Shown: positions 4,003 through 50,250 of the stretch, in pieces | Numbering within the stretch: the stretch's first letter is position 1 | Layout of the letters: each line of letters starts with the position of its first letter | DNA from: a virus | Strand: one strand, 5' to 3' | DNA: 64,000 nt | Virus genome (UHGV): UHGV-0311442 | The notes under the pieces: generated by a model | What the model saw: only the letters and a program-made list of their open reading frames with translations | Told to the model about the DNA's origin: nothing | Database searches by the model: none | Made by a program: the position numbers and the translations under genes

Positions 4003-4005
4003 CAA

Positions 4006-4509: not shown

Positions 4510-4534
4510 TGCTCACCTCGGAGTATTTTTAATT

Positions 4535-5908: not shown

Positions 5909-5911
5909 TGA

Positions 5912-8124: not shown

Positions 8125-8177
8125 TTTAATAGTCCTCTTTTAGGTTTGTTCAAATCAACTAAGGGTTATGTAAAAAG

Positions 8178-8657: not shown

Positions 8658-8679
8658 AACTCTGTTCCTTTAGGGAATG

Positions 8680-8717
8680 AAAATAAAAGTACCCCTTACT
8701 CCGTATAGGGTAAGGGG
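8680..8717 (-). terminator. rho-independent terminator
   Basis: hairpin CCCCTTAC...GTAAGGGG with T-run on minus strand. Confidence 0.45.
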
Positions 8718-8723
8718 TAGAGG

Positions 8724-29654: not shown

Positions 29655-29667
29655 GGAGATTTTTTTG

Positions 29668-33849: not shown

Positions 33850-33887
33850 GACAGGCTGCCTGCGGGCAGTTGTGTGTCCGTAGGTAA

Positions 33888-33924
33888 CCCCTCCCTGTAA
33901 TGGGGAGGGGTATCCATTTTATTT
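33888..33924 (+). terminator. rho-independent terminator
   Basis: hairpin CCCCTCCC-tgtaa-TGGGGAGGGG followed by TATCCATTTTATTT. Confidence 0.55.
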
Positions 33925-33943
33925 AAAAGTAGGAGTCTTTACG

Positions 33944-36900
33944 ATGCCGAGAGAAGACGCGGCGCAGTTTAACGGTACGCTAAGCACAGCGACGTACCCT
34001 AACCGATTTAACGTGGTCATTCCGCCTGAAGGACCTTTTTATCGTATCGGATTAAAACTCACAGTAGCCGACGATACCGCGCCTAACGGACGTCGTACTC
34101 TGATTGAGGGGTTGGACTACTATTTAGGCTATTACTTTAAAGAACTCGCAGAAGCTGAGCAAGATCAGATTTACGGCGGGTTCATGTTGCTGACCGCAAC
34201 AGAAATCGAATATGAGATTTTAGGGGTAGCACGCCAGTATCGTGTACCACAATCTGAAATCGGAAAGTTCTTAGTTCGTACTGACCTGAAAGACCCACGT
34301 AACGTGGACTGGTCAGAGTTAATGGCGTATGCGCCAGTTATTCAACCCATCGATCCTCCTGCTAACTTAGAAGAAGCTATTCTGAGGGATGAGGTTGTTA
34401 AAGCGTTAAACGATATCCGTAAGAAAATCGTTCAACGTTCAACAGAGTTAGATGCAGCGTTTACCGAAGTCACTAACCTGATTTACGAGAACGGTAAAAA
34501 GGTTTTCGACGAGGAGTTATACCAACACCACCTTAATCCTAACGCACACCAGTATACGACCACTGATGTTGGTGCCCTTCCGGTTTTGGGACGTGCTGTC
34601 GACGCTACAAAAGCGTTTGGACTGACGATTGACGAATTGGCTACGCTGATGGGTTCGGCGGGTATTGAGCAATCAGACGTTGATCAGTTAATGGGTGAAG
34701 CCCTTGGTACCGTTTACGGTCGTTGGGGTAGCACAAACGGTAACGAGCTGACGTTTAAAACCGCAGGCGGACACATCATCAGTATCCGTGGTGATAAGTG
34801 GTTAATTACCTCACCGCAACCGTTGGTGATTAAAGCAGACCAGGACAACAACGAATCGGGTTTGGCGGTTGAATTTAGTGCGGGACTGAATACGCTTTGG
34901 GTGCACTCTGGGACAGAACAGGATGTATTAGCGCCGGTTTACAACTCTGTGTATTTGGTTACACCAGAAATGGTGAACATGTACCTGACGTCTGTAACGT
35001 TACTTGAAGCAAATGCCTATTTCAAACCATCAGACAGCGTAAAACCATACGGTACAGCGAAGCAGTCTAATCCGCTAACGTTGAACGCGAATATTCCCAC
35101 AGCAACCGAGTCGGTTTATGGGGTGTTTTCGATTACGAATATCGCAACCTCCGTAGCACTAGGCACTGCTATTTCCCAAAAGGCGGTGACCGAATTAAAA
35201 GACCGGTTAGACTTGTACGTTGACGATGACTACACGGTTAACGGTAAAGGGTTTGTTAAGACAGGCGATAAAATGGTGTTAACCTTAACGAAAACCGATT
35301 TCGGTATCGATAAGATGGATAACACCATGCCGATCGCTAAACCGGTAACAAAAGCGTTAGCGAATGTGCTGAAAAATAAAAGTGTGAAGGAGCACACGCA
35401 CACTACCGCCGATTTGGATAATGTCCCGATTGGTAGTGCGACTGTAGATGGTATTTTACAGTTGTGGGATGCGATTGATGCCACGAATGATAAAGCCGTC
35501 ACGTCTCGTCAAGGGTGGTTGTTCGCAAAAGAGATCAAGAAGGTTTCCGATAAACTGAATACCATCTTACCTGCGTGGACTGTCGGTGGGGCGAAGTTCG
35601 GTAACAAAAACTTCTTACCCATTCCGGCACTCGGTAATTATTCAGGTTTTACAAAGAACCAGTCCTATCAGAAAGGCGTTGTAGGATATCAACAAGGTAA
35701 AGTTTATTCGTTACGTAATGCTTCTAATGGTGTACCTGGTACAGAGGCTATTTATTACGGTTATGCTGATATCAATACGTCGAATGCATTTGAGAACCCT
35801 CAGCAAACTTCGGTGAAATACCATCCTGCTGGGATGAGTAAATATCCTGGAGTGACCTTAAAAGCTATTTTGATCGGTGGTCAGGAAGCGATTATTTGTC
35901 TGGGTTCTGACAATAACCGTTATCTGGTCTTGTTCAATGGCTCGATGGACCACAGTAAGCACACAGTGGTGTGCCGTGTTACAATGCCGAATTATCGCGA
36001 TAATAGTCCCACTGGTTCAAACGAGATTCCGTGGAATCCTCGGCCAGAATCTGACGATGTTGTTCTGGTTGACGACCACGTTTACCTTCTTCGCTCCACG
36101 GTAAATAACGCTGCTTATGCCGTGGCGGCATGGCGTTTACGTAAAGCCGATTTGTCTACTAATGTTGCGTTAGAATTTGAACGTGTAACGTTAAATGGTG
36201 AAATGGGACAATTCGGAGATAACCTCTGCCTAAGAATTGGCCAGAAGACCGAAGAGTCGCAGACTGGTCAATTCTTCACGTATTACCCACCCGAGGCACG
36301 GGCTAAATGGACAATCGGTCACAACTTTGTCCATGGTCCAGAATGTAACCATGCTTGTGCGGTGCGTGACAGTGTGATTCGTGTGAATCATGTACCCACT
36401 GTGTGGTTTGCGGCTGCCGACGGTTCGACGATTAATTTCCGTCAATGGTCAACAAGTTTCACAATCGATACGTTAACGGGTAGAGTTACGTTGGAGGGTG
36501 CCGAACGTTTCCCCATTAAGGCTGATACTACCACACTGACGTTCGCGGATGGTTCAACTGTAGAAACCAGTCGTAAGTGGGGCGGTGGTCAAGCAAACAA
36601 TCGTTGTTTTGCAACGTATGCTAAACCTAACGGCACCGGAATGATGCTTTCCTGTTGGCAGGTTAACGATGCGGACCAGATGCCGAATGTTTCTATTAAA
36701 GGAACGCAAGGCAAAGAGTTTTTCGATTATTTGCGTTACGATAACCCGAACAATACCTCAGGCGAAGGAACGTTTACTTGGGATAAAGGCCGTGGTTCTA
36801 TCTATACCATCGGTCTTTCTCATCCTGTCGGTATCGGTGGTTCGAATAAGGTTTGGCTATCCAATCCACGCAACCGTTATACGATCGAAGTAGAAGTTGA

Positions 36901-39127
36901 CCCAAGTAAACCTTATGACGTTCCTGGATATAGCGGTTATGGCCCGAACAACAACCGTCGAGAAGTTGATGCAACCCTTTACGAACAGTTAAGCTGTATG
37001 GCTGCTTGCATGACTCCAGAGGAGCGTCACGGCCAGTTAAACGGTTGGTATTTGACGAAAGCGGAAACCTTCCCATATCGAAACATCTACGGTAACTTTG
37101 CCCTGTCATCAGAACGGCTGACGTTAGAGGAAGCGGATCGCCAGAAGATGATTAGGATGATTGTCGATGGTGCACCATCTGGTCAGGCAAACGGTTACGC
37201 GAACGAGCGCATCAGCGCAGCACACCAAAGCGGTAACGCGTTGTTTGCGCTCTGGTTGCTAGGCATTAACACTGTTTGTGAGTTCGACTTATTACAAGTC
37301 TCATGCATGAAAATCTTGAGTAACGGACGTCGAGTTCTCGACATCTATTATTTCATGGTGAGTCCGACTAAAGAAAACGGTTATCTACGTTTTAACTCGG
37401 CTACTTTCAAACTCGTTGATTGGTTCTTAGACCTTGATTACGGCTTAAGTTATCAGTCTCTGAGGGAAGAAGCGGGTAATAAAACGCGACGTGTAGGCCA
37501 GCCAATTTTTGCTTCTGCCGACGGTGTAAACTTCGGTCTATGGCTACCTTATACGCTGACAATACGGAATATCGGGGACCTAAATGCTTTGGGTTACGCT
37601 GCGAAGTATACCTTCGACCCTGGGTCGGGTTGGACTCGCGTTCCCGGTAAGTCACAATTGCGTCGGATGGCCCCTGCTCATAATCCCGAAACAGGCTGCT
37701 ACATGGGTGCGGGTAATTGGGACAAGATGGCACTAATTTTCTCTAAAGCAGATCGTGTCTTCTGTTCAGGTAACGCATATACAGCCGAAGAGTTCGTTAA
37801 TGACACCAGATTCACAACTGGGGGACAGGCGGTTATTATCGCTGGTGTGGAAACTGCCGAAGGTTGGATTCTATATTTGACGGAAGAGGTCAGGTTAGAT
37901 TTCGGTAGTAATAGCTATACATTACCGACGTGGTTGGTGGATTTAAGCAATGAATTCCCAGAAAACCATGCTAACCAGACGTTCTATGTTCATGCTGCTC
38001 TTGTAGGTTCGAAAGCTCAATATCAGATCGGTCTGGAAAAGCTGCCGGATACGAGTTCGCGATTATTTGTTGGTACAGTTACAACCGATAAAAAGCGCAT
38101 AGTTGCTATTAACATCGATAAAGTGAAACGGTTAGGCAGGGTTCGTGAATTAGAAGAACACGCTGCTGTTAGAGATCAGCACGACGTTGCAGCGGCGTAC
38201 GATCGAAAAACGGGTCCACTCCAAACCTTGGTTAACCAACCGCTGAAAGCCCCCACGGCATCTGCGGGCAAGGGTGCAGGGTATGCCGATGGTCAGAGAT
38301 GGAATGCGTTGACCGGGATCACAACACGTCCCAAACTGCCGATACAGGAAACCTACGCAGGTTATAAAAGTATCGGTAGAGTAGCGTATGAGAACTGCGC
38401 TGATCAGTTCTGGCAGAAAGCGGTCGCTGCAAACGTTGCAGCGGCTACTGCGTCTGAGAACAGTCAAGCGGCAGCCGCGAACATGAAGTGGTTGGGCGCG
38501 TATACGAAACCGACTACAGGTGCGAATGCATATCTGGCGCTGAGTCTGCGTGTTAAAGTGCCTGGTAATCCCGGCACCGCTAATCGTAGACTAAAAATCA
38601 GGCTTGCGGCTCCGACAGGTATAACCCAAGTTCGTTACGGGTTAAACCAGTCTGGTGGCACGATGACTGAACAGACAGTAACGTTAACTGCTAACAGTTA
38701 TCTGGAAAAAGAACACGCCGGATTTAAGCCAGCCGAAGAAGTCCGTGTACATGCTACGTTTGTCATTCCAAAAAATGAATACGATAGCTACCGTACGAAG
38801 TTCGGTGCTGTTCAGCTGATTGACGTTGAGTCGAACACTGTCATTAAACAGACAGATATCGACACACCGTTTATCGTGTATACCGACACGGAGTTAGCAG
38901 CGCAATCTGGTTTGGTGTATAAAGCGGTTAAGGGTCAGTTCCATCAACTCCCGTCTCAACCTGTCGTCATTGTAACTGATGGACAGACAGGGACTACGCC
39001 ACCGGTGAAAACCTCGTTTGCTGACGGGACATTAACGGTCTACGTGGCAACCACGTACGATGCGGTTAACCCAGCACAAACCCGCGATATCGATAAGCTC
39101 CAGTTCAATCTTATGTTTACATCTTAA
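33944..39127 (+). CDS. tail fibre / receptor-binding protein (1727 aa)
   Basis: shares N-terminal GPFY...DYxLxY module; largest ORF of the operon. Confidence 0.6.
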   Translation: MPREDAAQFNGTLSTATYPNRFNVVIPPEGPFYRIGLKLTVADDTAPNGRRTLIEGLDYYLGYYFKELAEAEQDQIYGGFMLLTATEIEYEILGVARQYRVPQSEIGKFLVRTDLKDPRNVDWSELMAYAPVIQPIDPPANLEEAILRDEVVKALNDIRKKIVQRSTELDAAFTEVTNLIYENGKKVFDEELYQHHLNPNAHQYTTTDVGALPVLGRAVDATKAFGLTIDELATLMGSAGIEQSDVDQLMGEALGTVYGRWGSTNGNELTFKTAGGHIISIRGDKWLITSPQPLVIKADQDNNESGLAVEFSAGLNTLWVHSGTEQDVLAPVYNSVYLVTPEMVNMYLTSVTLLEANAYFKPSDSVKPYGTAKQSNPLTLNANIPTATESVYGVFSITNIATSVALGTAISQKAVTELKDRLDLYVDDDYTVNGKGFVKTGDKMVLTLTKTDFGIDKMDNTMPIAKPVTKALANVLKNKSVKEHTHTTADLDNVPIGSATVDGILQLWDAIDATNDKAVTSRQGWLFAKEIKKVSDKLNTILPAWTVGGAKFGNKNFLPIPALGNYSGFTKNQSYQKGVVGYQQGKVYSLRNASNGVPGTEAIYYGYADINTSNAFENPQQTSVKYHPAGMSKYPGVTLKAILIGGQEAIICLGSDNNRYLVLFNGSMDHSKHTVVCRVTMPNYRDNSPTGSNEIPWNPRPESDDVVLVDDHVYLLRSTVNNAAYAVAAWRLRKADLSTNVALEFERVTLNGEMGQFGDNLCLRIGQKTEESQTGQFFTYYPPEARAKWTIGHNFVHGPECNHACAVRDSVIRVNHVPTVWFAAADGSTINFRQWSTSFTIDTLTGRVTLEGAERFPIKADTTTLTFADGSTVETSRKWGGGQANNRCFATYAKPNGTGMMLSCWQVNDADQMPNVSIKGTQGKEFFDYLRYDNPNNTSGEGTFTWDKGRGSIYTIGLSHPVGIGGSNKVWLSNPRNRYTIEVEVDPSKPYDVPGYSGYGPNNNRREVDATLYEQLSCMAACMTPEERHGQLNGWYLTKAETFPYRNIYGNFALSSERLTLEEADRQKMIRMIVDGAPSGQANGYANERISAAHQSGNALFALWLLGINTVCEFDLLQVSCMKILSNGRRVLDIYYFMVSPTKENGYLRFNSATFKLVDWFLDLDYGLSYQSLREEAGNKTRRVGQPIFASADGVNFGLWLPYTLTIRNIGDLNALGYAAKYTFDPGSGWTRVPGKSQLRRMAPAHNPETGCYMGAGNWDKMALIFSKADRVFCSGNAYTAEEFVNDTRFTTGGQAVIIAGVETAEGWILYLTEEVRLDFGSNSYTLPTWLVDLSNEFPENHANQTFYVHAALVGSKAQYQIGLEKLPDTSSRLFVGTVTTDKKRIVAINIDKVKRLGRVRELEEHAAVRDQHDVAAAYDRKTGPLQTLVNQPLKAPTASAGKGAGYADGQRWNALTGITTRPKLPIQETYAGYKSIGRVAYENCADQFWQKAVAANVAAATASENSQAAAANMKWLGAYTKPTTGANAYLALSLRVKVPGNPGTANRRLKIRLAAPTGITQVRYGLNQSGGTMTEQTVTLTANSYLEKEHAGFKPAEEVRVHATFVIPKNEYDSYRTKFGAVQLIDVESNTVIKQTDIDTPFIVYTDTELAAQSGLVYKAVKGQFHQLPSQPVVIVTDGQTGTTPPVKTSFADGTLTVYVATTYDAVNPAQTRDIDKLQFNLMFTS

Positions 39128-40434: not shown

Positions 40435-40830
40435 ATGGCGATCAGTGTTAAAAATGTACGTGACCGAATCACCAACGTAGAGAACCAAATGGCAACTGGC
40501 CCACGTGTTGATCCGCAAGTTGCGTCGAAAGCACATAATGCCGCCGACACTTTTTCGGGTTGGACGCCAAGTCGGTTAGACTGCGGGGGAAGCTGTAGCT
40601 GGACGTGCTCAAACGGTTGTACGCATGGCTGTACGAGTTGTTCGGGCACCTGTACGTCGGTGTGTGTAGGTAGCTGCTCCTCTGCGTGCGGTAACCAGTG
40701 TACTGGATGTAGTTCAACGTGTTCTGGTGGCTGTTCAGGTTGCAGTGGGACCTGTGGAGGTGCTTGCTCGGGCCGTTGTTCTACGGGTTGTTCTGGTGCT
40801 TGCTCCGGTGGCTGTTCTGGCCCAACCTAA
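40435..40830 (+). CDS. Cys-rich repeat peptide precursor A (leader + (C-x3)n core, ~21 Cys)
   Basis: AAGGA RBS; N-terminal ~50 aa ordinary sequence then DCGGSCSWTCSNGCTHGCTSCSGTC... of only C/S/G/T/N/A/V. Confidence 0.6.
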   Translation: MAISVKNVRDRITNVENQMATGPRVDPQVASKAHNAADTFSGWTPSRLDCGGSCSWTCSNGCTHGCTSCSGTCTSVCVGSCSSACGNQCTGCSSTCSGGCSGCSGTCGGACSGRCSTGCSGACSGGCSGPT

Positions 40831-40840
40831 GAGGTGAAAA

Positions 40841-41239
40841 ATGGCAATTGGATTACCTGCGCTACAAGCGCGGCTAAATAACATTGACAACACTGCATTG
40901 AAGAATACGGGTGCAGTACAAAACTATATTCGTGGGAAAGCGACGAACAACGCAGACCTATTCGGTGGGCAAGCTCGCAACCACTATGACTGCGGGGGAA
41001 GCTGTAGCTGGACCTGTTCGAGCTGTTCTGGTGGTTGTACAGGGAACGCATCAGGCGGCTGTGGCTCTTCCTGTTCTGCAAACTGTGTATCAGGTTGTAG
41101 CGCGGGCTGTAGTGGATGTTCGAATACCTGTTCTGGTGGCTGCTCAGGAAGCTGTACGGGGAGTTGTTCTAACTCGTGTGTAGGAAACTGTTCTGCAGGC
41201 TGCTCTGGTGCTTGCTCCGGTGGCTGTTCTGGGAGGTAA
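40841..41239 (+). CDS. Cys-rich repeat peptide precursor B
   Basis: AGAGGTGA RBS; leader shares NADLFGG and YDCGGSCSWTCS junction with A; CxxxC repeats. Confidence 0.6.
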   Translation: MAIGLPALQARLNNIDNTALKNTGAVQNYIRGKATNNADLFGGQARNHYDCGGSCSWTCSSCSGGCTGNASGGCGSSCSANCVSGCSAGCSGCSNTCSGGCSGSCTGSCSNSCVGNCSAGCSGACSGGCSGR

Positions 41240-41241
41240 TT

Positions 41242-41448
41242 GTGATTAGCCTTAAGAACCTTCGTGATCGGTTAGTAACAGCGGAAGGGTATATTACGAC
41301 CGCTAACGCAAACAACTATATTGCAAACCAGGGCACCGTGTCTTCAACCAATAACCTTGCCGGTTTACCTTTAAGCCATTATAACTGTAACGGCGGATGT
41401 AGCTGGTCGTGCAGTGGTAGCTGTAGTAAAGGTGCGGGGGGAAGGTAA
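41242..41448 (+). CDS. Cys-rich peptide precursor C (short core), GTG start
   Basis: GGGAGG 5 nt before GTG at 41242; ISLKNLRDRL leader resembling A; core YNCNGGCSWSCSGSCSKGAGGR. Confidence 0.5.
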   Translation: MISLKNLRDRLVTAEGYITTANANNYIANQGTVSSTNNLAGLPLSHYNCNGGCSWSCSGSCSKGAGGR

Positions 41449-41597: not shown

Positions 41598-42485
41598 ATG
41601 AAGAATGATTTACATTTAGCGTACAAAACAATTTTCAATCATCCACTTCACATTTCTTCCCCTGATTCCGTACGTGCACACTTAGCAGATGAAGTTCGTC
41701 TGTTGACTCAGTTGCCGGGCGAATGGCCTAAAGTGCGCGGACGTTTCTTTACCGATCGTAAAAACTATCGTGTGGAAAATACGTTTAAGATTCGTGATCT
41801 GACGGCAGAAAGTGTAGTGGTCTTTACCGGTGACTCCGAGTTGCGTGGTAAACTGGTTGCGGGTAAATATTTCTTTAGTGACGGGATTTTGAATAACTCC
41901 GTAGATATGGAATTGTTCTTTACCCCATTTGAAGAAATGGGCGCAAAACCAGTTGCCCGTCGTTGGTGGTCGCCGGATTACTTAGGCTCGTTCCCGTATT
42001 TCTTTACCCTGGTAACACCAGAAACGAAGAACTATTTCGATACGGAATCGTATATCGAAATTGAAGGGTACGAAGCGTTAGGGATTAATTGCTTAGCGGA
42101 TTTAATGGCGTATAGCTATAAGTTCGTGTGGGATCGTGAACGTTCCGTGTGGGTTGCCCTGACGGATGAACACGAAATTACAAAACGCATCCGTAAGCCT
42201 TGGATGCAGCATTTGATTCAAACGCGTATTGGCGAGCATCCGTCAACAGAAGCGGATCTGGCAAAACTCGTTAGTTTCTTAATGACGAAAGTCACGTTAA
42301 CTGACGAAGAGAAAGCAGCAGTGTCGGCGGTGTTGGACCGTAACGTAACGTTAGCGGATTTAGAACGTTTAAATGTCCGTTATAAAGACCTTAATCGTAT
42401 TTTGGAAGCGTATAACTCTCCATTCTTGTTAACCCCTGGTGCTAACGTAGACGACGATCCTTTGTTCGCCATTGATTATATTTAA
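41598..42485 (+). CDS. hypothetical protein (295 aa), cassette accessory
   Basis: GGAG RBS before ATG 41598; sits between precursor genes and radical SAM genes. Confidence 0.5.
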   Translation: MKNDLHLAYKTIFNHPLHISSPDSVRAHLADEVRLLTQLPGEWPKVRGRFFTDRKNYRVENTFKIRDLTAESVVVFTGDSELRGKLVAGKYFFSDGILNNSVDMELFFTPFEEMGAKPVARRWWSPDYLGSFPYFFTLVTPETKNYFDTESYIEIEGYEALGINCLADLMAYSYKFVWDRERSVWVALTDEHEITKRIRKPWMQHLIQTRIGEHPSTEADLAKLVSFLMTKVTLTDEEKAAVSAVLDRNVTLADLERLNVRYKDLNRILEAYNSPFLLTPGANVDDDPLFAIDYI

Positions 42486-42506: not shown

Positions 42507-43430
42507 ATGACAACCAATGCAGAACCAAGGTTATCGAATCGTTTATACGATAAACCCACCGTATTGTCCGTAGTCGCTACGTCCAAGTGTAACCTGGATT
42601 GTAGCTTCTGCGGTGGAGCCTATTACATGAATCGTGAAGATTCTCCGCGAGAGTTTCAACGTGAGCGAATTTTGGAAGCGCTGGAAGCTAATCCAACCAT
42701 TACCGAAATTCAGTGGACGGGTGGTGAGCCATTACTGGCAACCCGTAAAATTGAGGCGTTTGTTGACGAATTAAAAGTGATTCGTCCAGAACTCAAACAC
42801 CAGTTGTATACCAATGGCTTAAAGATGCGTAAATCGCATCTCCCGTTGCTAAAACAGTTTGACAATGTCTACGTTAGCATCGATGGGTTTAAGTCGTCTG
42901 AGCGCCCGTTTATGCGCTTTATTGACGAAGGCTGTTACGAAGCACTGGAAACGATCTACGAGCTGGATAATGTCCAGACTTGGGGTGTCCTGACACGGGA
43001 CCGTTTAGGGGACAAACGCTGGCACGAAGATATTATTCAGCTGCACAGCGCGATTTACCATTACGGTTTCCGTGCAATGACGTTACTCTTAGATGCGAAA
43101 ATGCCAAAACCTTTATCGCCTGACCACGTCATGAACTTTATTTACGGCTACTATCAGGTTCAGGACAACATTGAACGTCTGAATGTAGTAAATGGACGTG
43201 AATGTGGCTTTACGGTAAGTAAAGTGTTTGAAGAAGGGTGTAACGTTTGCAGCGAAAGTCTTTGGATTAATGCAGACGGTGGTGAGCACCAACTCCAGAA
43301 TGCACCTAACGTTCTGGAATCGGGATGTAACCAACTGGCCTTCTCTATCGGTGTAGAGGCGTACGAATATATTCGTCGCGTAGTGATGGCAGGACGTAAT
43401 AGAGGGGCGGCAAATGAGCCAAGCAAATGA
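42507..43430 (+). CDS. radical SAM enzyme (307 aa)
   Basis: CNLDCSFCGG (CxxxCxxC) and GGEPLL SAM-binding motif; extra C-terminal Cys (CNVCSE...GCNQ). Confidence 0.7.
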   Translation: MTTNAEPRLSNRLYDKPTVLSVVATSKCNLDCSFCGGAYYMNREDSPREFQRERILEALEANPTITEIQWTGGEPLLATRKIEAFVDELKVIRPELKHQLYTNGLKMRKSHLPLLKQFDNVYVSIDGFKSSERPFMRFIDEGCYEALETIYELDNVQTWGVLTRDRLGDKRWHEDIIQLHSAIYHYGFRAMTLLLDAKMPKPLSPDHVMNFIYGYYQVQDNIERLNVVNGRECGFTVSKVFEEGCNVCSESLWINADGGEHQLQNAPNVLESGCNQLAFSIGVEAYEYIRRVVMAGRNRGAANEPSK

Positions 43431-44736
43431 ATTCCCTAAGCAGTTAACGTATCAGATCGTAACCAACCTTTCGTGTAACCTGGACTGCGAATATTGTTAC
43501 GAACGTAAGTACCCGCGTAACAACAAAGCGGCCGACATTGTTGATTTCTTACACGCCTGTTTTGAACGTGATAAAAACGAACCGAATGTTGAAGTTATTA
43601 TCGACATTATCGGCGGTGAACCGTTCATGCAGCCTAAGTTGCTGCTGGCAGCGTTTGAAACCGCAGAGCAGTTGTGTAAAGAACACAACCGTCCGTTTAT
43701 GTTTAGTATCTCCACGAACGGGACCTTGTTAGATCGTCCGTTGAACCGTGAGATTGTAGAACGTTGGAAAGACAAACTTTCGGTTGGGGTTTCGATTGAT
43801 GGCTTGCCTGAGTCCCATGACCGTTATCGTATCTTCACAACAACGCGCCAGGGTTCTTACGAAGCCGCAGTACGTGGCTATAATTACTTAAAAGAGGTTG
43901 GCATTGCAGAACTCGGCGTAAAAGCGACCTTTACGTTAGAAACACTGCCGTTCTATGCTGCAGGGATGAAGTCATTAATTGACATTACTGGCGGTGGGAC
44001 AATTTCTGGGAACGTAACCTTCGAAGACGTTATGCCACGTAGCATGGCGACGTCAATCGCTTTACAGATGATGGATGTGATAGATTATTGGGTTGAGAAA
44101 GGATTACACACCAACCCACGTAATATCTTATCGCACATCATTCCAGAAGGGTTGGATTTCGATACGATTTGGGAACCGAACTGGCGTGACCAGTTACTGT
44201 ATAATGACACCGTACGGTTGAACCCAGAACGTTTACGTCCGTTCTGTGGGACGTTAACGCACATGACGTGCTTAGGATTTGACCGTAAGATCTTTGGCTG
44301 TAACCGCTTTATGTCAACGGTAACGTCGCGTTCTGCGGTGTTTGAGTTGGTAGGTCGGGAATTCGTCAGTCTGGACAACGGTAAATTGTTAGAAGAGATT
44401 CAAACGCAATATACCAACTACCCAGAGACCTGTTTAGGTTGTCCGATGAAACACGCTTGTGGTAGCTGTGCGGCGGCTTCTTACGAGAACGGGGAAGGAA
44501 CGTTAGAAGACCGTAAAGCGTATCACGCTGAACGTCGTCAGTGTGGCTGGACGACAGCGAAACTGATGGTGGCGGAATACTGGAAACAGAAGATGGGTAC
44601 GACGTCAGCAAAAGCGTTCCACGACACGAGCATGTGTTATTGCCCACGCTGTGTTCGTGAACGTGCCCAAAAGGAAAAATTATTAAGAGAAGCCAAAGAT
44701 GAAACCAATTCTGATCAACAATATTACGAAGCGTAG
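43414..44736 (+). CDS. radical SAM enzyme with SPASM-like C-terminal domain (440 aa)
   Basis: CNLDCEYCYE and GGEPF motifs; C-terminal CLGCPMKHACGSC cluster typical of SPASM/twitch auxiliary Fe-S domains; 17-nt overlap with upstream gene. Confidence 0.7.
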   Translation: MSQANEFPKQLTYQIVTNLSCNLDCEYCYERKYPRNNKAADIVDFLHACFERDKNEPNVEVIIDIIGGEPFMQPKLLLAAFETAEQLCKEHNRPFMFSISTNGTLLDRPLNREIVERWKDKLSVGVSIDGLPESHDRYRIFTTTRQGSYEAAVRGYNYLKEVGIAELGVKATFTLETLPFYAAGMKSLIDITGGGTISGNVTFEDVMPRSMATSIALQMMDVIDYWVEKGLHTNPRNILSHIIPEGLDFDTIWEPNWRDQLLYNDTVRLNPERLRPFCGTLTHMTCLGFDRKIFGCNRFMSTVTSRSAVFELVGREFVSLDNGKLLEEIQTQYTNYPETCLGCPMKHACGSCAAASYENGEGTLEDRKAYHAERRQCGWTTAKLMVAEYWKQKMGTTSAKAFHDTSMCYCPRCVRERAQKEKLLREAKDETNSDQQYYEA

Positions 44737-45271
44737 AATTCGACTTCTGGATAAGTTTCTGGAAAACAGTAAGCTATTCGGTTGTTATGTGGTGATTAAC
44801 GGTGAAGATTTTACCGATGACGTAAAACGCTTACTGATTCGTCACGGTGTGACTGTAATCATCCCAATGTACTGCACCGAACTTACTGACCTGTCGGTCG
44901 CGGAAATTGAAAAACGTAACCCAGGGTTTGAAGAACGGGTATTGGATTTCCCACGTCACAAAATTGCGTTTCTACGCCGCTCTTTAAGCGAACCCAGCGC
45001 AGAATCTATCACTGTGTTGGCATTGTCCTTCCCCGGCATTACTATCTTCGCAACACGTAACCCGAACTCACCGATTGATGGGTTTTACGATGAGCGAGAG
45101 AAATTTAATACCGTGATTTTTCCTGAGCTAACGCCAGAAGAATGCCAGGGTATCCGTATCGATTGGGAATCGGACTTCGACACAAGATTCCGTCATATCG
45201 ATTTTGAACTGTTAATCGAATTAGGGTTGATTAAAGGAGACGATGAATGTCTGCTACTGGTGAAGGCTTAA
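44699..45271 (+). CDS. hypothetical protein (190 aa), cassette accessory
   Basis: ORF track; overlaps preceding gene by 38 nt. Confidence 0.45.
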   Translation: MKPILINNITKRRIRLLDKFLENSKLFGCYVVINGEDFTDDVKRLLIRHGVTVIIPMYCTELTDLSVAEIEKRNPGFEERVLDFPRHKIAFLRRSLSEPSAESITVLALSFPGITIFATRNPNSPIDGFYDEREKFNTVIFPELTPEECQGIRIDWESDFDTRFRHIDFELLIELGLIKGDDECLLLVKA

Positions 45272-45918
45272 CGAAAGAAGAAATCCGTCGCCGTTATTTT
45301 GCGCACGATTTACCGATTGACCGTCATGGTAACTACATGGAGAAAATCGGTAGTGAAGATCACGGCCGTACAGGGTTTTGTGCGTTACTGCACTATAAGT
45401 TGATTGATGGGATGTCTGATCGCGAAGCATTGGAACAAATGCGTAACTACGACATGTCTGAAATCGAAGCACGGTTTACGCTACAGAAAGCGAAAGACTT
45501 TGTTAACGACACGTTGGGGATTGACCTGGAAGAAATTCGTGCAGGTTTACGTTCCACGGTGCGGTACATCTTTACCGATGTTCAGAAAATTCTAAGCGCT
45601 CTGGAATTCCGTTATCAGGATGCGCGCTATGCTGAGATTCAGGTAGGTGATTTCACTTTCCAGGCAGATGAGAAGTCACAGGTAGCACTGAGTCGTTATA
45701 TCCAGTCAGAAACTGCGCCAGCGTATTGGTTAACGGCTAACAACACCCGTATCGAACCGTTTACGTTAGAACAGTGCAAGACGTTGCTGGCAGCAATCGT
45801 TGAGCGCGATCAAAGACTACACCACGCAATGTCTGAGCAGAAAAGAGAAGTCAGAGCTTGGGCTGAAGCACGTGATTACGATTCAATTAAAGCGTTTGCG
45901 TTAGAGCAAGGGCTGTAA
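45247..45918 (+). CDS. hypothetical protein (223 aa), cassette accessory
   Basis: GGAG RBS; last gene before bidirectional terminator. Confidence 0.5.
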   Translation: MSATGEGLTKEEIRRRYFAHDLPIDRHGNYMEKIGSEDHGRTGFCALLHYKLIDGMSDREALEQMRNYDMSEIEARFTLQKAKDFVNDTLGIDLEEIRAGLRSTVRYIFTDVQKILSALEFRYQDARYAEIQVGDFTFQADEKSQVALSRYIQSETAPAYWLTANNTRIEPFTLEQCKTLLAAIVERDQRLHHAMSEQKREVRAWAEARDYDSIKAFALEQGL

Positions 45919-45926
45919 TCGACAGC

Positions 45927-45982
45927 GAAAAAAAATAGTATACCTACCTCCTATTACGGGAGGTAGGTATTTTTATTTTTTC
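45927..45982. terminator. bidirectional rho-independent terminator
   Basis: hairpin TACCTACCTCC-tattacg-GGAGGTAGGTA flanked by A8 and TTTTTATTTTTT. Confidence 0.65.
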
Positions 45983-46513
45983 TTAGGACGTAAAACCGTC
46001 CAGCTCACCGTTGGTGGTGGCCAGGTCAATACGATTATCAACAACTTTCGGCGTAATTACGAAAGTTGCCATTACACCTGGTTTATAACGGAGGTTCTTT
46101 TCAGTAACGGTGCACGTTACCGTACGCAGAGTGACGTTTTCATGTTCGTCTTTCTGGTCTTCGGTGTTGTACACAACGTCGCCTGGTGCGATAGCATCGT
46201 TCGGTTTAACTTTATTGATGTAATATTGTAACCAAGCGCGCAGTTCATTTTCTTGAACCCAGCGAGACAGATCGTCAGTTAGTTCAATACGGCCTACAAC
46301 ACCCGGTTCCAGACGATCGTAATGCAGTTCGATTGCACCTTTGAAATTCTCAGAACCTGGTAGTGCAGTCATGGTAACTTTGGTATTCTTACCTTCGCCT
46401 TCCAGCGCAGTAGGGAGACCAAAGGACACTTCTTTATCAGTTACCTGATGTGGTAGCTCAGTGTTAGCAGCATTATAAAGCGCGACCAACATCATCTGGT
46501 TAGTAGCGGCCAT
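45983..46513 (-). CDS. five-member paralog family protein (176 aa)
   Basis: shares N-terminal pattern and ENFKG...HYxRL core with 46579..47109; similar to 49774, 50264, 61107. Confidence 0.55.
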   Translation of the reverse strand: MAATNQMMLVALYNAANTELPHQVTDKEVSFGLPTALEGEGKNTKVTMTALPGSENFKGAIELHYDRLEPGVVGRIELTDDLSRWVQENELRAWLQYYINKVKPNDAIAPGDVVYNTEDQKDEHENVTLRTVTCTVTEKNLRYKPGVMATFVITPKVVDNRIDLATTNGELDGFTS

Positions 46514-46578: not shown

Positions 46579-47109
46579 TTATTCTTTAGGAGACGGTGCG
46601 GTGAAGCCATCCAGTTCACCTTCCAAACCGCTCAGTGCTACTTTCTCAGGAGCCGGAGGAGTAACTTTATACGTCGCGACAGTACCAGGCAGGAACTTCA
46701 AGTGGCCAGCCACAACCGTTACCACGTAAATGGTTTTGCCTTCTTCTTCACGAGAAATAGTTTGCAGGTCGTTTTCACCGAACTCGTCATCGGTGTACCC
46801 TTTCTCAGCCATGGCTGCGTTAACTTTCGCCAGGATCTTCGTTGGTGAATCGAAATCGGTAGTAGGTGCAGTTACTTCAACTTCACCAACGATGTCGCAG
46901 GAAAGACGAGTATAGTGGAATTCTTTCTCGCCTTTGAAGTTCTGGCTTTCTGCCTTGGCGGTCAGAGTAATTTTAGTGTTGCGGCCAGCTTCTCCGGTGA
47001 ACTCAGCGACAGCACTAAAATTAACATCATTTACAGTCAACTTAGAAGCAGTTTGGTTGTTTTTAGCAATTACAATCTCGATAAGCTGCTGTTGAAAAGT
47101 TTTAGCCAT
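46579..47109 (-). CDS. five-member paralog family protein (176 aa)
   Basis: TKITLTAKAESQNFKGEKEFHYTRL aligns with TKVTMTALPGSENFKGAIELHYDRL in neighbour. Confidence 0.55.
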   Translation of the reverse strand: MAKTFQQQLIEIVIAKNNQTASKLTVNDVNFSAVAEFTGEAGRNTKITLTAKAESQNFKGEKEFHYTRLSCDIVGEVEVTAPTTDFDSPTKILAKVNAAMAEKGYTDDEFGENDLQTISREEEGKTIYVVTVVAGHLKFLPGTVATYKVTPPAPEKVALSGLEGELDGFTAPSPKE

Positions 47110-47846: not shown

Positions 47847-48362
47847 TTAAATCTCGACTAAAGCGCTCCAATCGATTGGTTTTTGCTTAACCACTTTCAC
47901 AGTACCACGATTTGGTGACCAGAAAGTAATGTTAGGTTGATTACGAACGTCGATGTGTAACCAGCTGATGTCACATTCAATAAAGTGAATGAACGGAAAC
48001 TCATCAGGGTTAGCAGCGATATAGTCGTGAACCTGTTTTACGGTGCTATCCAACAACGTTGCATCAATTGCGTTACCGAATTTGTGTTGACTTCCTGAAT
48101 CGGCGTAAAGCTGTAACGCACGTTGTTTATAACTACCGCCCTTAGGCTTTTCTTGATTAATAAAGAAATCTAAAGTTCTTAGTCCGCGTTGTTGCGCAGC
48201 GGTTGAGTTAATCACCATTCTACCGAAACGGTTACGAATCTGTTGCAGTGAAATCATTAGCAACGGGTTCATAAACCGGATTGCAGAATCGCCGTATTTG
48301 GCAATATAAGACTGTGGTACTAACTCTCTGAGTTTAAAATTACTCGGATTTGGATGAAACAT
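47847..48362 (-). CDS. peptidase M15-family cell-wall peptidase
   Basis: SGSQHKFGNAIDA and WLHIDVR motifs (zinc ligands of M15 D,D-/L,D-peptidases); GGGAGGGAAG RBS. Confidence 0.6.
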   Translation of the reverse strand: MFHPNPSNFKLRELVPQSYIAKYGDSAIRFMNPLLMISLQQIRNRFGRMVINSTAAQQRGLRTLDFFINQEKPKGGSYKQRALQLYADSGSQHKFGNAIDATLLDSTVKQVHDYIAANPDEFPFIHFIECDISWLHIDVRNQPNITFWSPNRGTVKVVKQKPIDWSALVEI

Positions 48363-49005
48363 CTTCCCTCCCAGACAGAAAAGCGCGTTTGATGTTCAGG
48401 TATTTGACATTAACGGGCTGATCTGTGGTGATATCAATACGTTCGTGGTCAGGGATTGCAGGTTCCTTAAACTCGCGAACGAATAAATAGTTTCGATTAT
48501 AATCTAACGTACGAAACGCGTTAGTGTTGTAGGATGGCTTTGCATTAGGATCTACGTAGGAATCCCAGCCGAATTCAACGACGGCCTTATAAAATGTTTG
48601 GCAGATATAAGGTGAGATTTCCAACGACTGCATAATACGCAGGAACGTTAAATCAGAGAACTCTTTATCGATAATACGCGAAACGTTACCACCCGGTGTC
48701 ATGGGATAGCTACGCTCCGTGTTACATTTTTGATAGAGTAGGTCGTGAATGCAGGCCGCAGGTGCCCACGGTCCGTCAGGATGGAAAATTCCCTGGAGGT
48801 GTTCAGGAATTGACGCTAAATCGGTAACGAACCCTTTCGGTGCTGTTAACCACAGTTGCGTGTCAGGCAATACACCCGTTAAATAAACCGCACGGTCTAA
48901 GTGTACGTGGTCGTGATAAATCTCACGTAACGTAAACGGATAATGGTAATCCTCCGTTAATACAAACCACTTATTGTCTAAACGTTTATATTGAAACTTC
49001 TCCAT
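48340..49005 (-). CDS. DUF1353-like protein
   Basis: TDLASIPEHLQGIFHPDGPWAPAACIHDLLY resembles the DUF1353 D-x-AS-x-P...HD pattern; start re-set to ATG 49005. Confidence 0.4.
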   Translation of the reverse strand: MEKFQYKRLDNKWFVLTEDYHYPFTLREIYHDHVHLDRAVYLTGVLPDTQLWLTAPKGFVTDLASIPEHLQGIFHPDGPWAPAACIHDLLYQKCNTERSYPMTPGGNVSRIIDKEFSDLTFLRIMQSLEISPYICQTFYKAVVEFGWDSYVDPNAKPSYNTNAFRTLDYNRNYLFVREFKEPAIPDHERIDITTDQPVNVKYLNIKRAFLSGREDVSSKSE

Positions 49006-49121
49006 TACCCACACCTTCCCTTATAGAAACCAGAAAAATTCGCATCCACGCTTTTCGTCTTTACGTTTTCGTCCAGACGTTAACGCTTTCCACAATAGTG
49101 CTAAGAGTTTAGCAAACCAGT

Positions 49122-49773: not shown

Positions 49774-50250
49774 TTATTTCTTCTTAGCGCGTGATGGCTT
49801 AGCTGGCGGTGTTTCAACAGTCGGTTTACGCGCAACGCGCACTGTAAAACCACCGACCCAGGTTAGGCACTCAGGACGGAAGAAAATGCCGTGCTCGATT
49901 GCACTGCCGCCCAGCGGTAACTCACCAACCTGCTCTACCCATACGTCGTCTTCAGTAAGGGTTAAGCCATACTGTTCGTTAATTACAGGCAACAGGTCCG
50001 CAGTCGTGGTGGCTGTTTCAACTAACAGTTTCGGCAATACGTTGAGGAAATACAAACCGGCATCGATGCGGTTATACTGGAACGTTTGCTTATTAGCATA
50101 ACCGAGATTCTTAACCGCCACAACCGTAATTTCGGTATTGTACGCACCGGTACTTACGACGGGCTCACCCAATGTAACTTTGGCGGTGTCGAACTCAGCG
50201 TCTGGGTTAGCCTTTTTAATAAGGTCGAAGATAGTTTCTTGACTGGTCAT
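49774..50250 (-). CDS. five-member paralog family protein (158 aa)
   Basis: N-terminal pattern and DLLPVINEQYGLTLTEDDV shared with 50264 and 61107. Confidence 0.55.
   Translation of the reverse strand: MTSQETIFDLIKKANPDAEFDTAKVTLGEPVVSTGAYNTEITVVAVKNLGYANKQTFQYNRIDAGLYFLNVLPKLLVETATTTADLLPVINEQYGLTLTEDDVWVEQVGELPLGGSAIEHGIFFRPECLTWVGGFTVRVARKPTVETPPAKPSRAKKK

What the first reader, a model, noticed from the sequence alone, without database searches (positions are those of the whole stretch)
42507..44736. Two adjacent, overlapping radical SAM enzymes, one with SPASM-like domain
Both proteins carry the CxxxCxxC cluster near the N-terminus (CNLDCSFC, CNLDCEYC) and a GGEP SAM-binding motif; the 440-aa protein adds a C-terminal CLGCPMKHACGSC cluster as in SPASM/twitch peptide maturases, and the 307-aa one has a shorter extra Cys set. 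Paired rSAM maturases next to multiple precursors suggest two distinct modifications or precursor-specific enzymes.
Basis: partly seen in the sequence, partly recalled or inferred. Interest (0 to 1): 0.8.

Follow-up and report, generated by a model that had tools for sequence, protein, structure and literature searches.

The report
Radical SAM enzymes for phage tail fibres
Two overlapping radical SAM enzyme genes in a giant Salmonella-type phage sit inside its tail-fibre gene block and most likely modify chemically (probably by sulphur-to-carbon cross-links) the cysteine-repeat fibre proteins encoded just upstream, a modification of virus particle proteins for which I found no published description.

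Summary
ORFs 42507-43430 (307 aa) and 43414-44736 (440 aa) overlap by 17 nt. Both carry CX3CX2C and GGEP and pass Pfam Radical_SAM.

The 440-aa enzyme has an 8-Cys SPASM domain. Its closest relatives are thioether-forming peptide maturases (CteB structure; NCBIfam PapB and TIGR04115 "CXXX-repeat target" models, both below cutoff). The 307-aa enzyme is a shorter maturase-type radical SAM protein with only three conserved C-terminal Cys.

The window is an SPN3US-like jumbo phage. The enzymes lie in one co-directional block with baseplate/fibre genes, three CxxxC-repeat ORFs (about 21, 20 and 5 Cys) and a 295-aa orphan protein.

The same four-part module (Cys-repeat protein, orphan protein, short rSAM, long rSAM) recurs in unrelated prophages. 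There the Cys repeat is the C-terminus of bona fide tail-fibre proteins. 76 of 80 viral loci encoding a relative of the long enzyme carry such repeats.

Best reading: a tail-fibre maturation cassette, not a secreted-peptide pathway. The chemistry is inferred, not shown. I found no literature on it. It is a new variant of a known kind.

The parts
33944..39127 (+). Giant baseplate/tail-fibre candidate protein (1727 aa). It is the homolog of SPN3US gp168 and forms the upstream context of the cassette.
   Evidence: It is syntenic with SPN3US_0168. gp168, gp169 and gp170 are virion 'baseplate/tail fiber candidates' by mass spectrometry in SPN3US (PMC5105663; PMC5694885).
39162..40367 (+). Virion structural protein with a coiled coil and NPH-type fibre motifs (homolog of SPN3US gp167). 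The start is probably GTG 39162 or ATG 39168.
   Evidence: phrog_2163 'virion structural protein', E 8e-103. SPN3US_0167 is annotated 'putative virion structural protein 20'. The start was inferred from the homologs' N-termini.
40435..40830 (+). Cys-repeat protein A (131 aa). About 50 aa of N-terminal region are followed by a tract of 21 Cys in C-x3/C-x2 spacing that runs almost to the C-terminus.
   Evidence: phrog_6085, E 1.6e-40. It is conserved in SPN3US and Erwinia phages. dN/dS is 0.03-0.15. It gives a weak hit to NCBIfam TIGR04114.
40841..41239 (+). Cys-repeat protein B (132 aa, 20 Cys), a paralog of A.
   Evidence: phrog_6085, E 2.5e-39. TIGR04114 scores 19.4 bits against a cutoff of 20. 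See the alignment. The junction 'KATNNADLFGGQARNHYDCGGSCSWTCS' matches the junction in prophage tail fibres.
41242..41448 (+). Cys-repeat protein C (68 aa). It has a GTG start 2 nt after the stop of B and a GGGAGG Shine-Dalgarno sequence. It keeps the junction plus only five Cys (CNGGCSWSCSGSC).
   Evidence: phrog_6085, E 3.9e-24. 68-aa orthologs exist in SPN3US, pEa_SNUABM_29 and L019. Start site.
41598..42485 (+). Orphan accessory protein (295 aa, homolog of SPN3US gp165). It is conserved with the enzyme pair and is proposed to be a fibre chaperone or substrate-presenting partner.
   Evidence: phrog_8030, E 1e-141. Its C-terminal half is homologous to the 250-aa proteins in the same position in the Deferribacter and Campylobacter prophages (E 3e-10 and 4e-10). 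It is present in all clade A loci. It has no Pfam, PDB or named relative. Only 75 representatives were found among 1.84 billion proteins.
42507..43430 (+). rSAM1, the short radical SAM enzyme (307 aa). It has the CX3CX2C cluster, GGEP, and three conserved C-terminal Cys (245, 248, 274).
43414..44736 (+). rSAM2, the long radical SAM/SPASM enzyme (440 aa). It has the CX3CX2C cluster, GGEP and eight conserved SPASM Cys. It has no N-terminal peptide-recognition domain.
44699..45271 (+). 190-aa protein of unknown function (homolog of SPN3US gp162). It overlaps the end of rSAM2 by 38 nt and was found only in the jumbo-phage version of the cassette.
   Evidence: phrog_7988, E 1.8e-55. Present in L001-L019 only.
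45247..45918 (+). DUF4376 protein (homolog of SPN3US gp161), the last gene of the co-directional block.
   Evidence: Pfam DUF4376, E 4.8e-11. gp161 was detected in SPN3US virions as a member of paralog family B (PMC5694885).
45940..45970 (.). Strong bidirectional terminator-like hairpin (13-bp stem with T runs on both sides) that closes the gene block.
   Evidence: No terminator-like site was found between the fibre genes, the Cys-repeat ORFs and the enzymes.

Best explanation
The two genes are the enzymatic core of a phage tail-fibre maturation cassette.

Shown:
- The window is an SPN3US-like jumbo phage.
- The enzymes lie in one co-directional, tightly packed block. It contains baseplate/fibre proteins, three small proteins whose C-terminal 20-80 residues are C-[S/T]-G-x repeats, and an orphan 295-aa protein.
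- The same four components recur in unrelated phages. There the Cys repeat is fused to the C-terminus of genuine tail-fibre proteins.

Inferred mechanism:
1. Late in infection the Cys-repeat proteins are made together with the fibre proteins.
2. The orphan protein binds or presents them. It occupies the position of the P2 gpG fibre chaperone in the Campylobacter prophage. It may replace the peptide-recognition domain that rSAM2 lacks.
3. rSAM2 holds three [4Fe-4S] clusters: the SAM cluster and two SPASM auxiliary clusters. It cleaves SAM, abstracts a hydrogen from a carbon within or next to each repeat unit, and joins a cluster-bound Cys thiolate to that carbon. It would repeat this along the tract and so create a ladder of redox-insensitive thioether rings.
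4. rSAM1 has the SAM cluster plus a probable auxiliary site ligated by three Cys. It would add a second modification or serve a subset of sites or precursors.
5. The products are not cleaved or exported. They stay in the virion as rigid, protease- and reductant-resistant distal fibre modules.
For: Phage identity and synteny:
- Identity and synteny with SPN3US gp161-gp168 are shown. The gp168 family is a virion baseplate/fibre candidate (PMC5105663; PMC5694885).

Enzyme class:
- Pfam Radical_SAM is passed by both.
- rSAM2's best NCBIfam hits are PapB (117 bits) and TIGR04115 over its full length (115 bits). Eight SPASM Cys are invariant or nearly so across 24 homologs down to 27% identity. CteB is the best PDB match by profile (4.7e-37) and by fold (AF2 pLDDT 87.8; Foldseek 1e-15).

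Substrate link:
- 76 of 80 viral loci with a relative of rSAM2 carry CxxxC-repeat ORFs within 7 kb.
- Among 79 bacterial loci retrieved with the generic motif, most of which match rSAM2 only over its N-terminal radical SAM core, just 5 carry such repeats. Four of those five are matches over most of the enzyme's length.

Fibre link:
- In the Campylobacter P2-like prophage the gene order is baseplate J, Tail_P2_I, tail fibre ending in CNGCSGSCSGSC..., 250-aa orphan, long rSAM, short rSAM, DUF1353, sheath.
- The Deferribacter prophage has GpJ, a fibre with HxHDDRYYTE repeats and about 28 Cys repeats, the orphan, the short rSAM and the long rSAM.
- The Cys-repeat proteins of L005, L021, L024 and L027 combine N-terminal tail-fibre PHROGs with C-terminal phrog_6085, the family of the window's ORFs.
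- The junction motif 'NAxxLxGQxxxxYx|C(G/N)G(S/T)CSW(S/T)C' is shared by the stand-alone and the fused forms, and the tract is always C-terminal.
- Clade B loci, which are true TIGR04115 members at 385-586 bits, lie next to baseplate wedge and tail-collar fibre genes.

Other support:
- No peptidase or transporter is present in the block.
- The only terminator-like site lies after gp161.
- The thioether chemistry of the nearest characterised enzyme PapB is described in PMC10739248.
Against: - No chemistry was observed. Thioether formation is inferred only from kinship, at 17-20% identity to solved enzymes.
- rSAM2 fails the curated cutoffs of TIGR04115 (115 against 350), PapB (117 against 340) and SCIFF (60 against 425).
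- PapB needs a carboxylate acceptor (PMC10739248). Asp and Glu make up about 1% of repeat positions here, so the acceptor and regiochemistry must differ.
- anSME, which oxidises Cys or Ser to formylglycine, is also a close structural match.
- The small proteins have never been shown in a virion. In SPN3US they are unannotated or annotated in the wrong frame, so published proteomes could not have scored them.
- In the jumbo phages the Cys-repeat proteins are stand-alone 68-132-aa proteins, which is formally compatible with a peptide product.
- The neighbour survey across 33 non-redundant loci gave tail families as the commonest annotated hits, but DNA methyltransferases and helicases also appeared.
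- The role of the orphan protein rests on position and co-occurrence only.
Confidence: 0.55

Rival explanations
1. A classical phage-encoded RiPP pathway. The three small Cys-repeat proteins would be leader-plus-core precursors. After modification by the two enzymes they would be cleaved and released at lysis or through a host exporter, as diffusible peptides such as a bacteriocin, a signal or an anti-defence factor.
For: - In the jumbo phages the substrates are small (68-132 aa), with a conserved N-terminal region of about 50 aa that resembles a leader.
- The enzymes belong to the maturase branch of radical SAM/SPASM proteins.
- NCBIfam names the related family a 'peptide maturase'.
- GG motifs lie near the leader/core junction.
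Against: - No protease, exporter or immunity gene lies in the block or nearby.
- The same module in prophages acts on 250-600-aa proteins with tail-fibre N-terminal domains.
- The 'leader' carries a tail-fibre motif shared with those fibres.
- The genes sit between fibre genes in one block that ends in a single terminator-like site.
Confidence: 0.15
2. The Cys-repeat tract is a fibre module, but the enzymes do not make thioether cross-links. They would carry out another radical reaction on it. Candidates are Cys-to-formylglycine oxidation (as in anSME), epimerisation (as in YydG/EpeE), or building or loading metal or iron-sulphur sites on a Cys-rich scaffold.
For: - anSME is the second-best solved relative of rSAM2 by profile (1e-17) and among the top fold matches of both enzymes.
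- EpeE/YydG, TigE and MoaA appear among rSAM1's matches.
- The repeats lack the acidic acceptor that PapB uses (PMC10739248).
- From my own knowledge: other tail-fibre tips are stabilised by metal ions, for example the His-Fe sites of T4 gp37.
Against: - The best HMM and structure matches for rSAM2 are thioether formers (PapB, CteB).
- Dense Cys spacing with S/T/G neighbours resembles sactipeptide and ranthipeptide cores more than sulfatase motifs. No C/S-x-P-x-R motif is present in the repeats.
Confidence: 0.2
3. The two enzymes have nothing to do with the neighbouring Cys-rich ORFs. They would act on a small molecule or nucleic acid, for example nucleotide modification, a viperin-like activity or cofactor synthesis, as an auxiliary metabolic function of the phage.
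For: - rSAM1 gives weak core-only hits to MoaA, viperin, QueE and NrdG models.
- Radical SAM genes in jumbo phages have been loosely ascribed to DNA repair or host metabolism (PMC8541153).
Against: - Co-occurrence with Cys-repeat ORFs in 76 of 80 viral loci, across unrelated phage types.
- The SPASM domain and maturase-type best matches.
- All small-molecule family hits cover only the N-terminal core and score far below cutoff.
Confidence: 0.03

Closest known systems
NCBIfam TIGR04115 (radical SAM peptide maturase, CXXX-repeat target family) with TIGR04114 (Cys-rich repeat target)
   Same: - The target type is the same: long C-x3 repeat tracts encoded next to a radical SAM/SPASM enzyme.
- rSAM2 aligns to the model over its full length (positions 3-345 of 359).
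- True members (385-586 bits) were recovered in the same viral scan. They too lie next to Cys-repeat proteins and to baseplate or tail-fibre genes.
   Different: - rSAM2 scores 115 bits against a cutoff of 350, so it belongs to a sister clade at 24-28% identity.
- The window's clade adds a second, short radical SAM enzyme and an orphan protein of 240-300 aa. It lacks the N-terminal extension of 40-100 aa seen in true members.
- I found no experimental or published description of either clade.
PapB/PapA (freyrasin ranthipeptide system, Paenibacillus polymyxa)
   Same: - It is the best-scoring NCBIfam model for rSAM2 (1.2e-33).
- It is a SPASM enzyme that installs a series of small thioether rings on a tandemly repeated Cys motif: six Cys-to-Asp C-beta links (PMC10739248).
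   Different: - The score of 117 bits is below the cutoff of 340.
- The PapA acceptor is Asp in CX3D. The phage repeats are C-[S/T]-G-x with about 1% acidic residues.
- PapA is a short leader-dependent peptide. Here the substrates are fibre modules.
CteB/CteA (SCIFF thioether maturase, PDB 5WGG)
   Same: - It is the nearest solved structure for both enzymes.
- It has the same SPASM architecture with two auxiliary clusters.
   Different: - CteB has an N-terminal peptide-recognition domain of about 100 aa. The rSAM2 profile aligns only from CteB residue 104 onward.
- The SCIFF family model scores 60 bits against a cutoff of 425.
- It makes a single Cys-Thr link rather than about 20 repeats.
Covalent or metal-based stabilisation of virion proteins, such as HK97 capsid isopeptide cross-links and the T4 gp37 fibre-tip iron sites (from my own knowledge)
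   Same: The proposed biological logic is the same: extra bonds make an extracellular viral structure mechanically and chemically robust.
   Different: Those cases are autocatalytic or use metal ligation. None uses dedicated radical SAM enzymes or Cys-derived thioethers.

Membership tests
Radical SAM superfamily (Pfam PF04055) | A CX3CX2C motif for the SAM-binding [4Fe-4S] cluster, and a score above the Pfam gathering threshold. | tested here: met
   rSAM1 has CNLDCSFC at 28-35 and scores 53 bits. rSAM2 has CNLDCEYC at 21-28 and scores 57 bits. The cutoff is 29.5. The three Cys are invariant in both family alignments.
Radical SAM superfamily (Pfam PF04055) | A GGE SAM-binding motif and a partial TIM-barrel fold. 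| tested here: met
   GGEP lies at 72-75 and 67-70, and G-G-E is invariant. The AF2 models (pLDDT 89.3 and 87.8) superpose on radical SAM structures.
SPASM-domain radical SAM enzymes (rSAM2) | Seven or eight C-terminal Cys for two auxiliary [4Fe-4S] clusters. The pattern is C-x9-15-G-x4-C, a gap, C-x2-C-x5-C-x3-C, a gap, then C. | tested here: met
   C278, C286, C296, C340, C343, C349, C352 and C377 are invariant or at least 90% conserved over 24 homologs. The central block is C-x2-C-x5-C-x2-C, one residue shorter than canonical. The region aligns with the SPASM domain of CteB. No Pfam SPASM model hit appeared at E<=0.1.
SPASM-domain radical SAM enzymes (rSAM1) | Seven or eight C-terminal Cys for two auxiliary clusters. 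| tested here: not met
   Only three C-terminal Cys are conserved (C245/246, C248, C274). C143 and C233 are not conserved.
Twitch-type radical SAM enzymes (rSAM1) | A truncated SPASM-like C-terminal domain (beta-hairpin plus helix) that binds one auxiliary cluster. | tested here: inconclusive
NCBIfam TIGR04115, CXXX-repeat target maturase (rSAM2) | A score at or above the curated cutoff of 350 bits. | tested here: not met
   114.7 bits. Relatives in L028, L030, L046, L047 and L082 score 385-586 bits.
NCBIfam TIGR04115, CXXX-repeat target maturase (rSAM2) | It is encoded next to a protein with tandem CXXX repeats (TIGR04114). | tested here: met
   Three such ORFs lie 1.1-2.1 kb upstream. TIGR04114 scores 19.4 and 14.4 bits against a cutoff of 20. 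84% of the spacings are C-x3-C.
PapB family ranthipeptide maturase (NF047865) | A score at or above 340 bits, and a substrate with Cys-X3-Asp motifs. | tested here: not met
   116.8 bits. Asp is about 1% of repeat positions in this clade.
SCIFF maturase, CteB type (TIGR03974) | A score at or above 425 bits, and an N-terminal peptide-recognition (RRE) domain. | tested here: not met
   59.6 bits. Only 20 residues precede the cluster motif, and the profile aligns from CteB residue 104.
RiPP pathway in the classical sense | A short precursor whose leader is removed by a dedicated protease, with the product exported. | tested here: inconclusive
   No protease or transporter domain was found in the genes from 33.9 to 50.3 kb. 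Homologous substrates reach 600 aa and carry tail-fibre domains. Cleavage itself cannot be tested in silico.
Thioether (sactionine/ranthionine) cross-linking enzymes | A demonstrated S-C bond between Cys and an acceptor carbon. | not testable with these tools
   This needs mass spectrometry or NMR of the modified protein.

The most novel reading that the evidence does not exclude
Radical SAM/SPASM 'CXXX-repeat' systems, so far filed as cryptic peptide natural-product pathways, may in fact be virion-maturation machinery. They would turn the Cys-repeat C-termini of tail-fibre proteins into poly-thioether ladder structures. This would occur in jumbo phages, P2-like and lambda-like prophages and many gut phages. 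It would be the first enzyme-installed radical cross-linking of a viral structural protein, and a cytoplasm-compatible substitute for disulfide bonds in receptor-binding fibres.
Probability: 0.45. Interest if true: 0.85.

Novelty: new variant of a known kind. Interest (0 to 1): 0.72.

Why it matters
If the reading holds, phage receptor-binding fibres can carry dozens of enzyme-made covalent cross-links. Structural models, host-range engineering and proteomics all currently ignore such links: the repeats contain almost no tryptic sites, and in SPN3US the ORFs are unannotated or annotated in the wrong frame.

It would reassign an uncharacterised maturase family, NCBIfam TIGR04115/04114 and its sister clade, from 'peptide natural product' to virion assembly. 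It would also explain why jumbo phages of Salmonella, Erwinia and Cronobacter conserve two radical SAM genes.

It would offer a processive enzyme that staples about 20 consecutive C-x3 units, which is of interest for peptide and protein engineering.

It is directly testable. SPN3US is a genetic model phage with amber mutants and established virion mass spectrometry.

Tried and rejected
- **Literature.** Ten full-text searches found nothing on these genes beyond generic 'radical SAM' annotation. The terms covered SPN3US plus radical SAM, CXXX-repeat, TIGR04115/04114, ranthipeptide plus phage, tail fibre plus radical SAM/thioether/Cys-rich, SPASM plus tail fibre, and RiPP plus prophage plus tail. 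One candidate paper was irrelevant. Two attempts to fetch Hudson et al. 2019 (JACS) by DOI and by a guessed PMC id failed.
- **Genome scan.** It returned mostly other SPASM families and missed the known Campylobacter and Deferribacter loci. It served only as a negative control for the Cys-repeat association. It does not measure how often bacterial members lie in prophages.
- **Orphan 295-aa protein.** No Pfam, PDB-sequence or named homolog was found, even with profiles.
- **Neighbour survey.** I pooled 95 neighbour proteins from 33 non-redundant loci in one PHROG scan. The tool reports only per-family counts. Tail families lead, but the result is too fragmented for a per-locus rate.
- **Attenuator idea.** I looked for a terminator in the 149-nt gap between precursor C and the orphan gene, as in many RiPP operons. 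None was found, and folding is no better than shuffles (z 0.15).
- **Cluster geometry.** Cys-Cys distances in the AF2 models could not be measured because coordinates are not exposed.
- **Paralogy of the two enzymes.** I rejected the idea that they are recent duplicates. They share only 25% identity, confined to the N-terminal core.
Full report
**Observation.** rSAM1 is 42507-43430 (307 aa) and rSAM2 is 43414-44736 (440 aa), both on the + strand. The rSAM2 start codon lies 17 nt inside rSAM1, behind a purine-rich ribosome-binding stretch. rSAM1 carries CNLDCSFC (residues 28-35) and GGEP (72-75). rSAM2 carries CNLDCEYC (21-28), GGEP (67-70) and CLGCPMKHACGSC (340-352). Both pass the Pfam Radical_SAM gathering score (53 and 57 bits against 29.5). 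Apart from the Cys-repeat ORFs themselves, no other ORF of at least 100 aa in the window has a CX3CX2C motif.

**What the window is.** The region matches Salmonella phage SPN3US and its Escherichia, Proteus and Erwinia relatives at about 72-74% nucleotide identity, with complete gene-order conservation. A 225-kb IMG/VR contig is 100% identical over rSAM2 and is presumably the source (L007). [quoted passage not shown]

Upstream lie three giant paralogous ORFs (25332-39127). Their SPN3US counterparts gp170, gp169 and gp168 are abundant virion 'baseplate/tail fiber candidates' (PMC5694885; PMC5105663). Next comes a gp167-like virion structural protein. Downstream lie a 190-aa unknown protein and a DUF4376 protein. 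From the fibre genes to the DUF4376 gene everything is co-directional with small gaps or overlaps. The only terminator-like site is a strong bidirectional hairpin at 45940-45970.

**The Cys-repeat ORFs.** Three ORFs lie between gp167 and the enzymes: 40435-40830, 40841-41239 and 41242-41448. Each encodes about 50 N-terminal residues followed by C-x3 (84%) or C-x2 (16%) repeats, with 21, 20 and 5 Cys. The consensus unit is C-[S/T]-G-[S/G/T]. They belong to PHROG 6085 of unknown function (E 1e-24 to 1e-40) and give borderline hits to NCBIfam TIGR04114 'Cys-rich repeat'.

They are real genes. All three orthologs are present in SPN3US, Erwinia phage pEa_SNUABM_29 and other relatives. dN is 0.05-0.27 with saturated dS, comparable to the neighbouring genes. 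In SPN3US records they are unannotated, and 'gp166' is annotated in a wrong frame across precursor B.

**Classification of rSAM2.**
- The best NCBIfam models are PapB ranthipeptide maturase (116.8 bits) and TIGR04115 'radical SAM peptide maturase, CXXX-repeat target family'. The latter aligns over its whole length (114.7 bits, model positions 3-345 of 359). Both are well below the curated cutoffs of 340 and 350.
- In an alignment of 24 homologs down to 27% identity, the three SAM-cluster Cys and eight C-terminal Cys (278, 286, 296, 340, 343, 349, 352, 377) are invariant or nearly so. This is a full SPASM set.
- A profile search of PDB sequences gives the thioether-forming SCIFF maturase CteB first (4.7e-37, through the SPASM domain), then anSME.
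- The AF2 model (pLDDT 87.8) matches CteB, ChlB, anSME and SuiB best.
- Only 20 residues precede the cluster motif, and the profile aligns from CteB residue 104. rSAM2 therefore lacks CteB's N-terminal peptide-recognition domain.

**Classification of rSAM1.**
- Sequence models see only the radical SAM core: TIGR04084, MoaA, PapB and others, all far below cutoff.
- Its homologs found by the word-indexed search are all jumbo-phage proteins.
- In 24 of them the SAM-binding residues are invariant. Only three C-terminal Cys are conserved: C-x2-C or C-x-C at 245-248, and G-C at 274.
- It is therefore a maturase-type radical SAM enzyme with a reduced, probably single-cluster C-terminal domain. It is not a recent duplicate of rSAM2: identity is 25%, in the core only.

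**Evidence from other phages.** Distant homologs of rSAM2 (33-40% identity) occur in bacterial genomes inside prophages of quite different types.
- In Campylobacter pinnipediorum the gene order is baseplate J, Tail_P2_I, a 384-aa tail fibre (Pfam Phage_tail_fib) ending in ...GCNGCSGSCSGSCSSGCTACSGCSGSCSG..., a 250-aa unknown protein, the long rSAM, a short rSAM, DUF1353, sheath and tube.
- In Deferribacter abyssi a GpJ-type central fibre is followed by a 302-aa fibre. This has HxHDDRYYTE repeats, then 'KATNADQLGGQAGSYYRCSDCSWTCSS' and about 28 Cys repeats. After it come a 250-aa unknown protein, a short rSAM and the long rSAM.
- The 250-aa proteins are homologous to the C-terminal half of the window's 295-aa protein (E 3e-10 and 4e-10). 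The short rSAMs are homologous to rSAM1 (E 3e-15 and 2e-7), including the CxC...GC Cys.

**Viral contig scan.** A scan of IMG/VR returned 80 loci, and 76 of them carry Cys-repeat ORFs within 7 kb, up to 92 Cys in one 480-aa protein.

Iterated local HMM searches separate two clades.
- Clade A (at least 31% identity to rSAM2, including the window) always has the orphan protein and almost always a short rSAM.
- Clade B (24-28% identity) has a long rSAM with a 40-100-aa N-terminal extension, no orphan protein and rarely a short rSAM. Clade B proteins pass the TIGR04115 cutoff at 385-586 bits.

The fibre link holds in both clades.
- In clade A the Cys-repeat proteins of L005, L021, L024 and L027 combine N-terminal tail-fibre PHROGs with C-terminal PHROG 6085.
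- The Cys tract is always C-terminal, with 3-12 residues after it.
- The tract is preceded by tail-fibre-type junctions, 'NAxxLxGQxxxxYx|C(G/N)G(S/T)CSW(S/T)C' or 'FDGSxxIxIxxG|C'. The first of these is shared with the window's small proteins.
- Clade B loci examined (L037, L047, L082) lie next to baseplate-wedge and tail-collar-fibre genes.

As a control I used 79 bacterial loci retrieved through the generic cluster motif, most matching rSAM2 only over the N-terminal core. Only 5 have Cys repeats, and four of those five match over most of the enzyme's length.

**Interpretation.** The shown facts point to a four-component module dedicated to the Cys-repeat C-terminal part of phage fibre proteins. 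In SPN3US-like jumbo phages that part is encoded as three separate small proteins.

That the enzymes act on these repeats is a strong inference from co-occurrence across unrelated phages. That the products are structural follows from three points: the fused forms, the gene position, and the absence of any protease or exporter.

That the chemistry is thioether formation is a weaker inference, drawn from the kinship of rSAM2 with PapB and CteB. PapB links Cys sulphur to Asp C-beta at repeated motifs (PMC10739248). The phage repeats lack acidic residues, so the acceptor must differ. It might be the alpha-carbon of S/T/G, as in sactipeptides (my own knowledge), or another position.

The orphan protein occupies the slot of the P2 gpG fibre chaperone in the Campylobacter prophage (this comparison is from my own knowledge), and rSAM2 lacks a recognition domain. 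I therefore propose that the orphan protein presents the substrate. This is inference only.

The role of rSAM1 is open. A close relative (L019) carries an extra short rSAM paralog inserted between precursors A and B. That hints at precursor- or site-specific short enzymes.

**Comparison with what is known.** The genes are publicly annotated as radical SAM proteins, and NCBIfam defines a 'CXXX-repeat target' maturase family. I found no experimental work on that family and no published link between it and phage tail fibres.

The window's enzymes fail the membership cutoffs of TIGR04115, PapB and SCIFF. They should be described as a sister clade that works on the same kind of target, not as members. 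I rate the finding a new variant of a known kind. It deserves fairly high interest, because it makes enzyme-installed covalent cross-linking of phage receptor-binding fibres directly testable in a tractable model phage.

Noticed in passing
L001 (SPN3US NC_027402) 7950-8979; L003 (JN641803) 4950-5979: In both SPN3US records the three Cys-repeat ORFs are not annotated. The annotated 'hypothetical protein' gp166 (ACQ60_gp100 / SPN3US_0166; L001 8426-8761) lies in a different frame across precursor B (real ORF 8353-8757). Published virion proteomes could therefore not have detected these proteins.
   Followed up: partly
L019 3159-7017 (IMGVR_UViG_3300045988_078609; rSAM2 93% identical to the window's): This close relative has a third radical SAM gene. 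It is a 303-aa paralog of the short enzyme (3576-4487), inserted between precursors A and B, in addition to the usual short and long pair.
   Followed up: partly
window 48340-49014 (-); L005 8068-8433: A DUF1353 protein (E 7e-15) lies 3.6 kb downstream of the enzymes on the opposite strand. A DUF1353 gene directly follows the rSAM pair in the Campylobacter prophage. RefSeq calls the SPN3US homolog a 'tail assembly chaperone'. This may be a fifth associated component or a coincidence.
   Followed up: no
window 45983-46513, 46579-47109 and 49774-50250 (all on the - strand): Three paralogous small proteins with DUF7941 lie immediately after the cassette's terminator, converging on it.
   Followed up: no
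window 25332-29654, 29665-33849 and 33944-39127 (+): Three consecutive giant ORFs (1440, 1394 and 1727 aa) correspond to the SPN3US gp170/169/168 paralog family of baseplate/fibre candidates. The 1727-aa protein gives no Pfam hit at all.
   Followed up: partly
window 40469-41315, both strands: Many overlapping alternative-frame ORFs of 50-130 aa cross the Cys-repeat genes on both strands. They are by-products of the repetitive TGC/AGC/GGC codon composition and can mislead gene callers, as happened in SPN3US and pEa_SNUABM_29.
   Followed up: partly
L028 4783-6246; L052 5659-6957; L080 2967-5786: Some gut-metagenome phages encode very large Cys-repeat proteins: 480 aa with 92 Cys, 433 aa with 80 Cys, and a 937-aa protein with internal tracts. 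In clade B the tract starts with a conserved CxxxC(S/T)GLC motif instead of the CSW(S/T)C of clade A.
   Followed up: partly
L020 4062-8107 (213-kb viral contig): Another jumbo-size contig has a 568-aa Cys-repeat fibre followed by a short rSAM that appears split or frameshifted (4062-4277 and 4193-4777). A 472-aa short-rSAM-like protein and the long rSAM come after it.
   Followed up: no
L046 8213-9493: In one clade B locus, a 420-aa ORF lies directly after the long rSAM and shares its C-terminal sequence (…PEEWAL…GREELD.LNALA…). It was not recognised as a radical SAM protein by the local searches. It may be a degenerate paralog.
   Followed up: no
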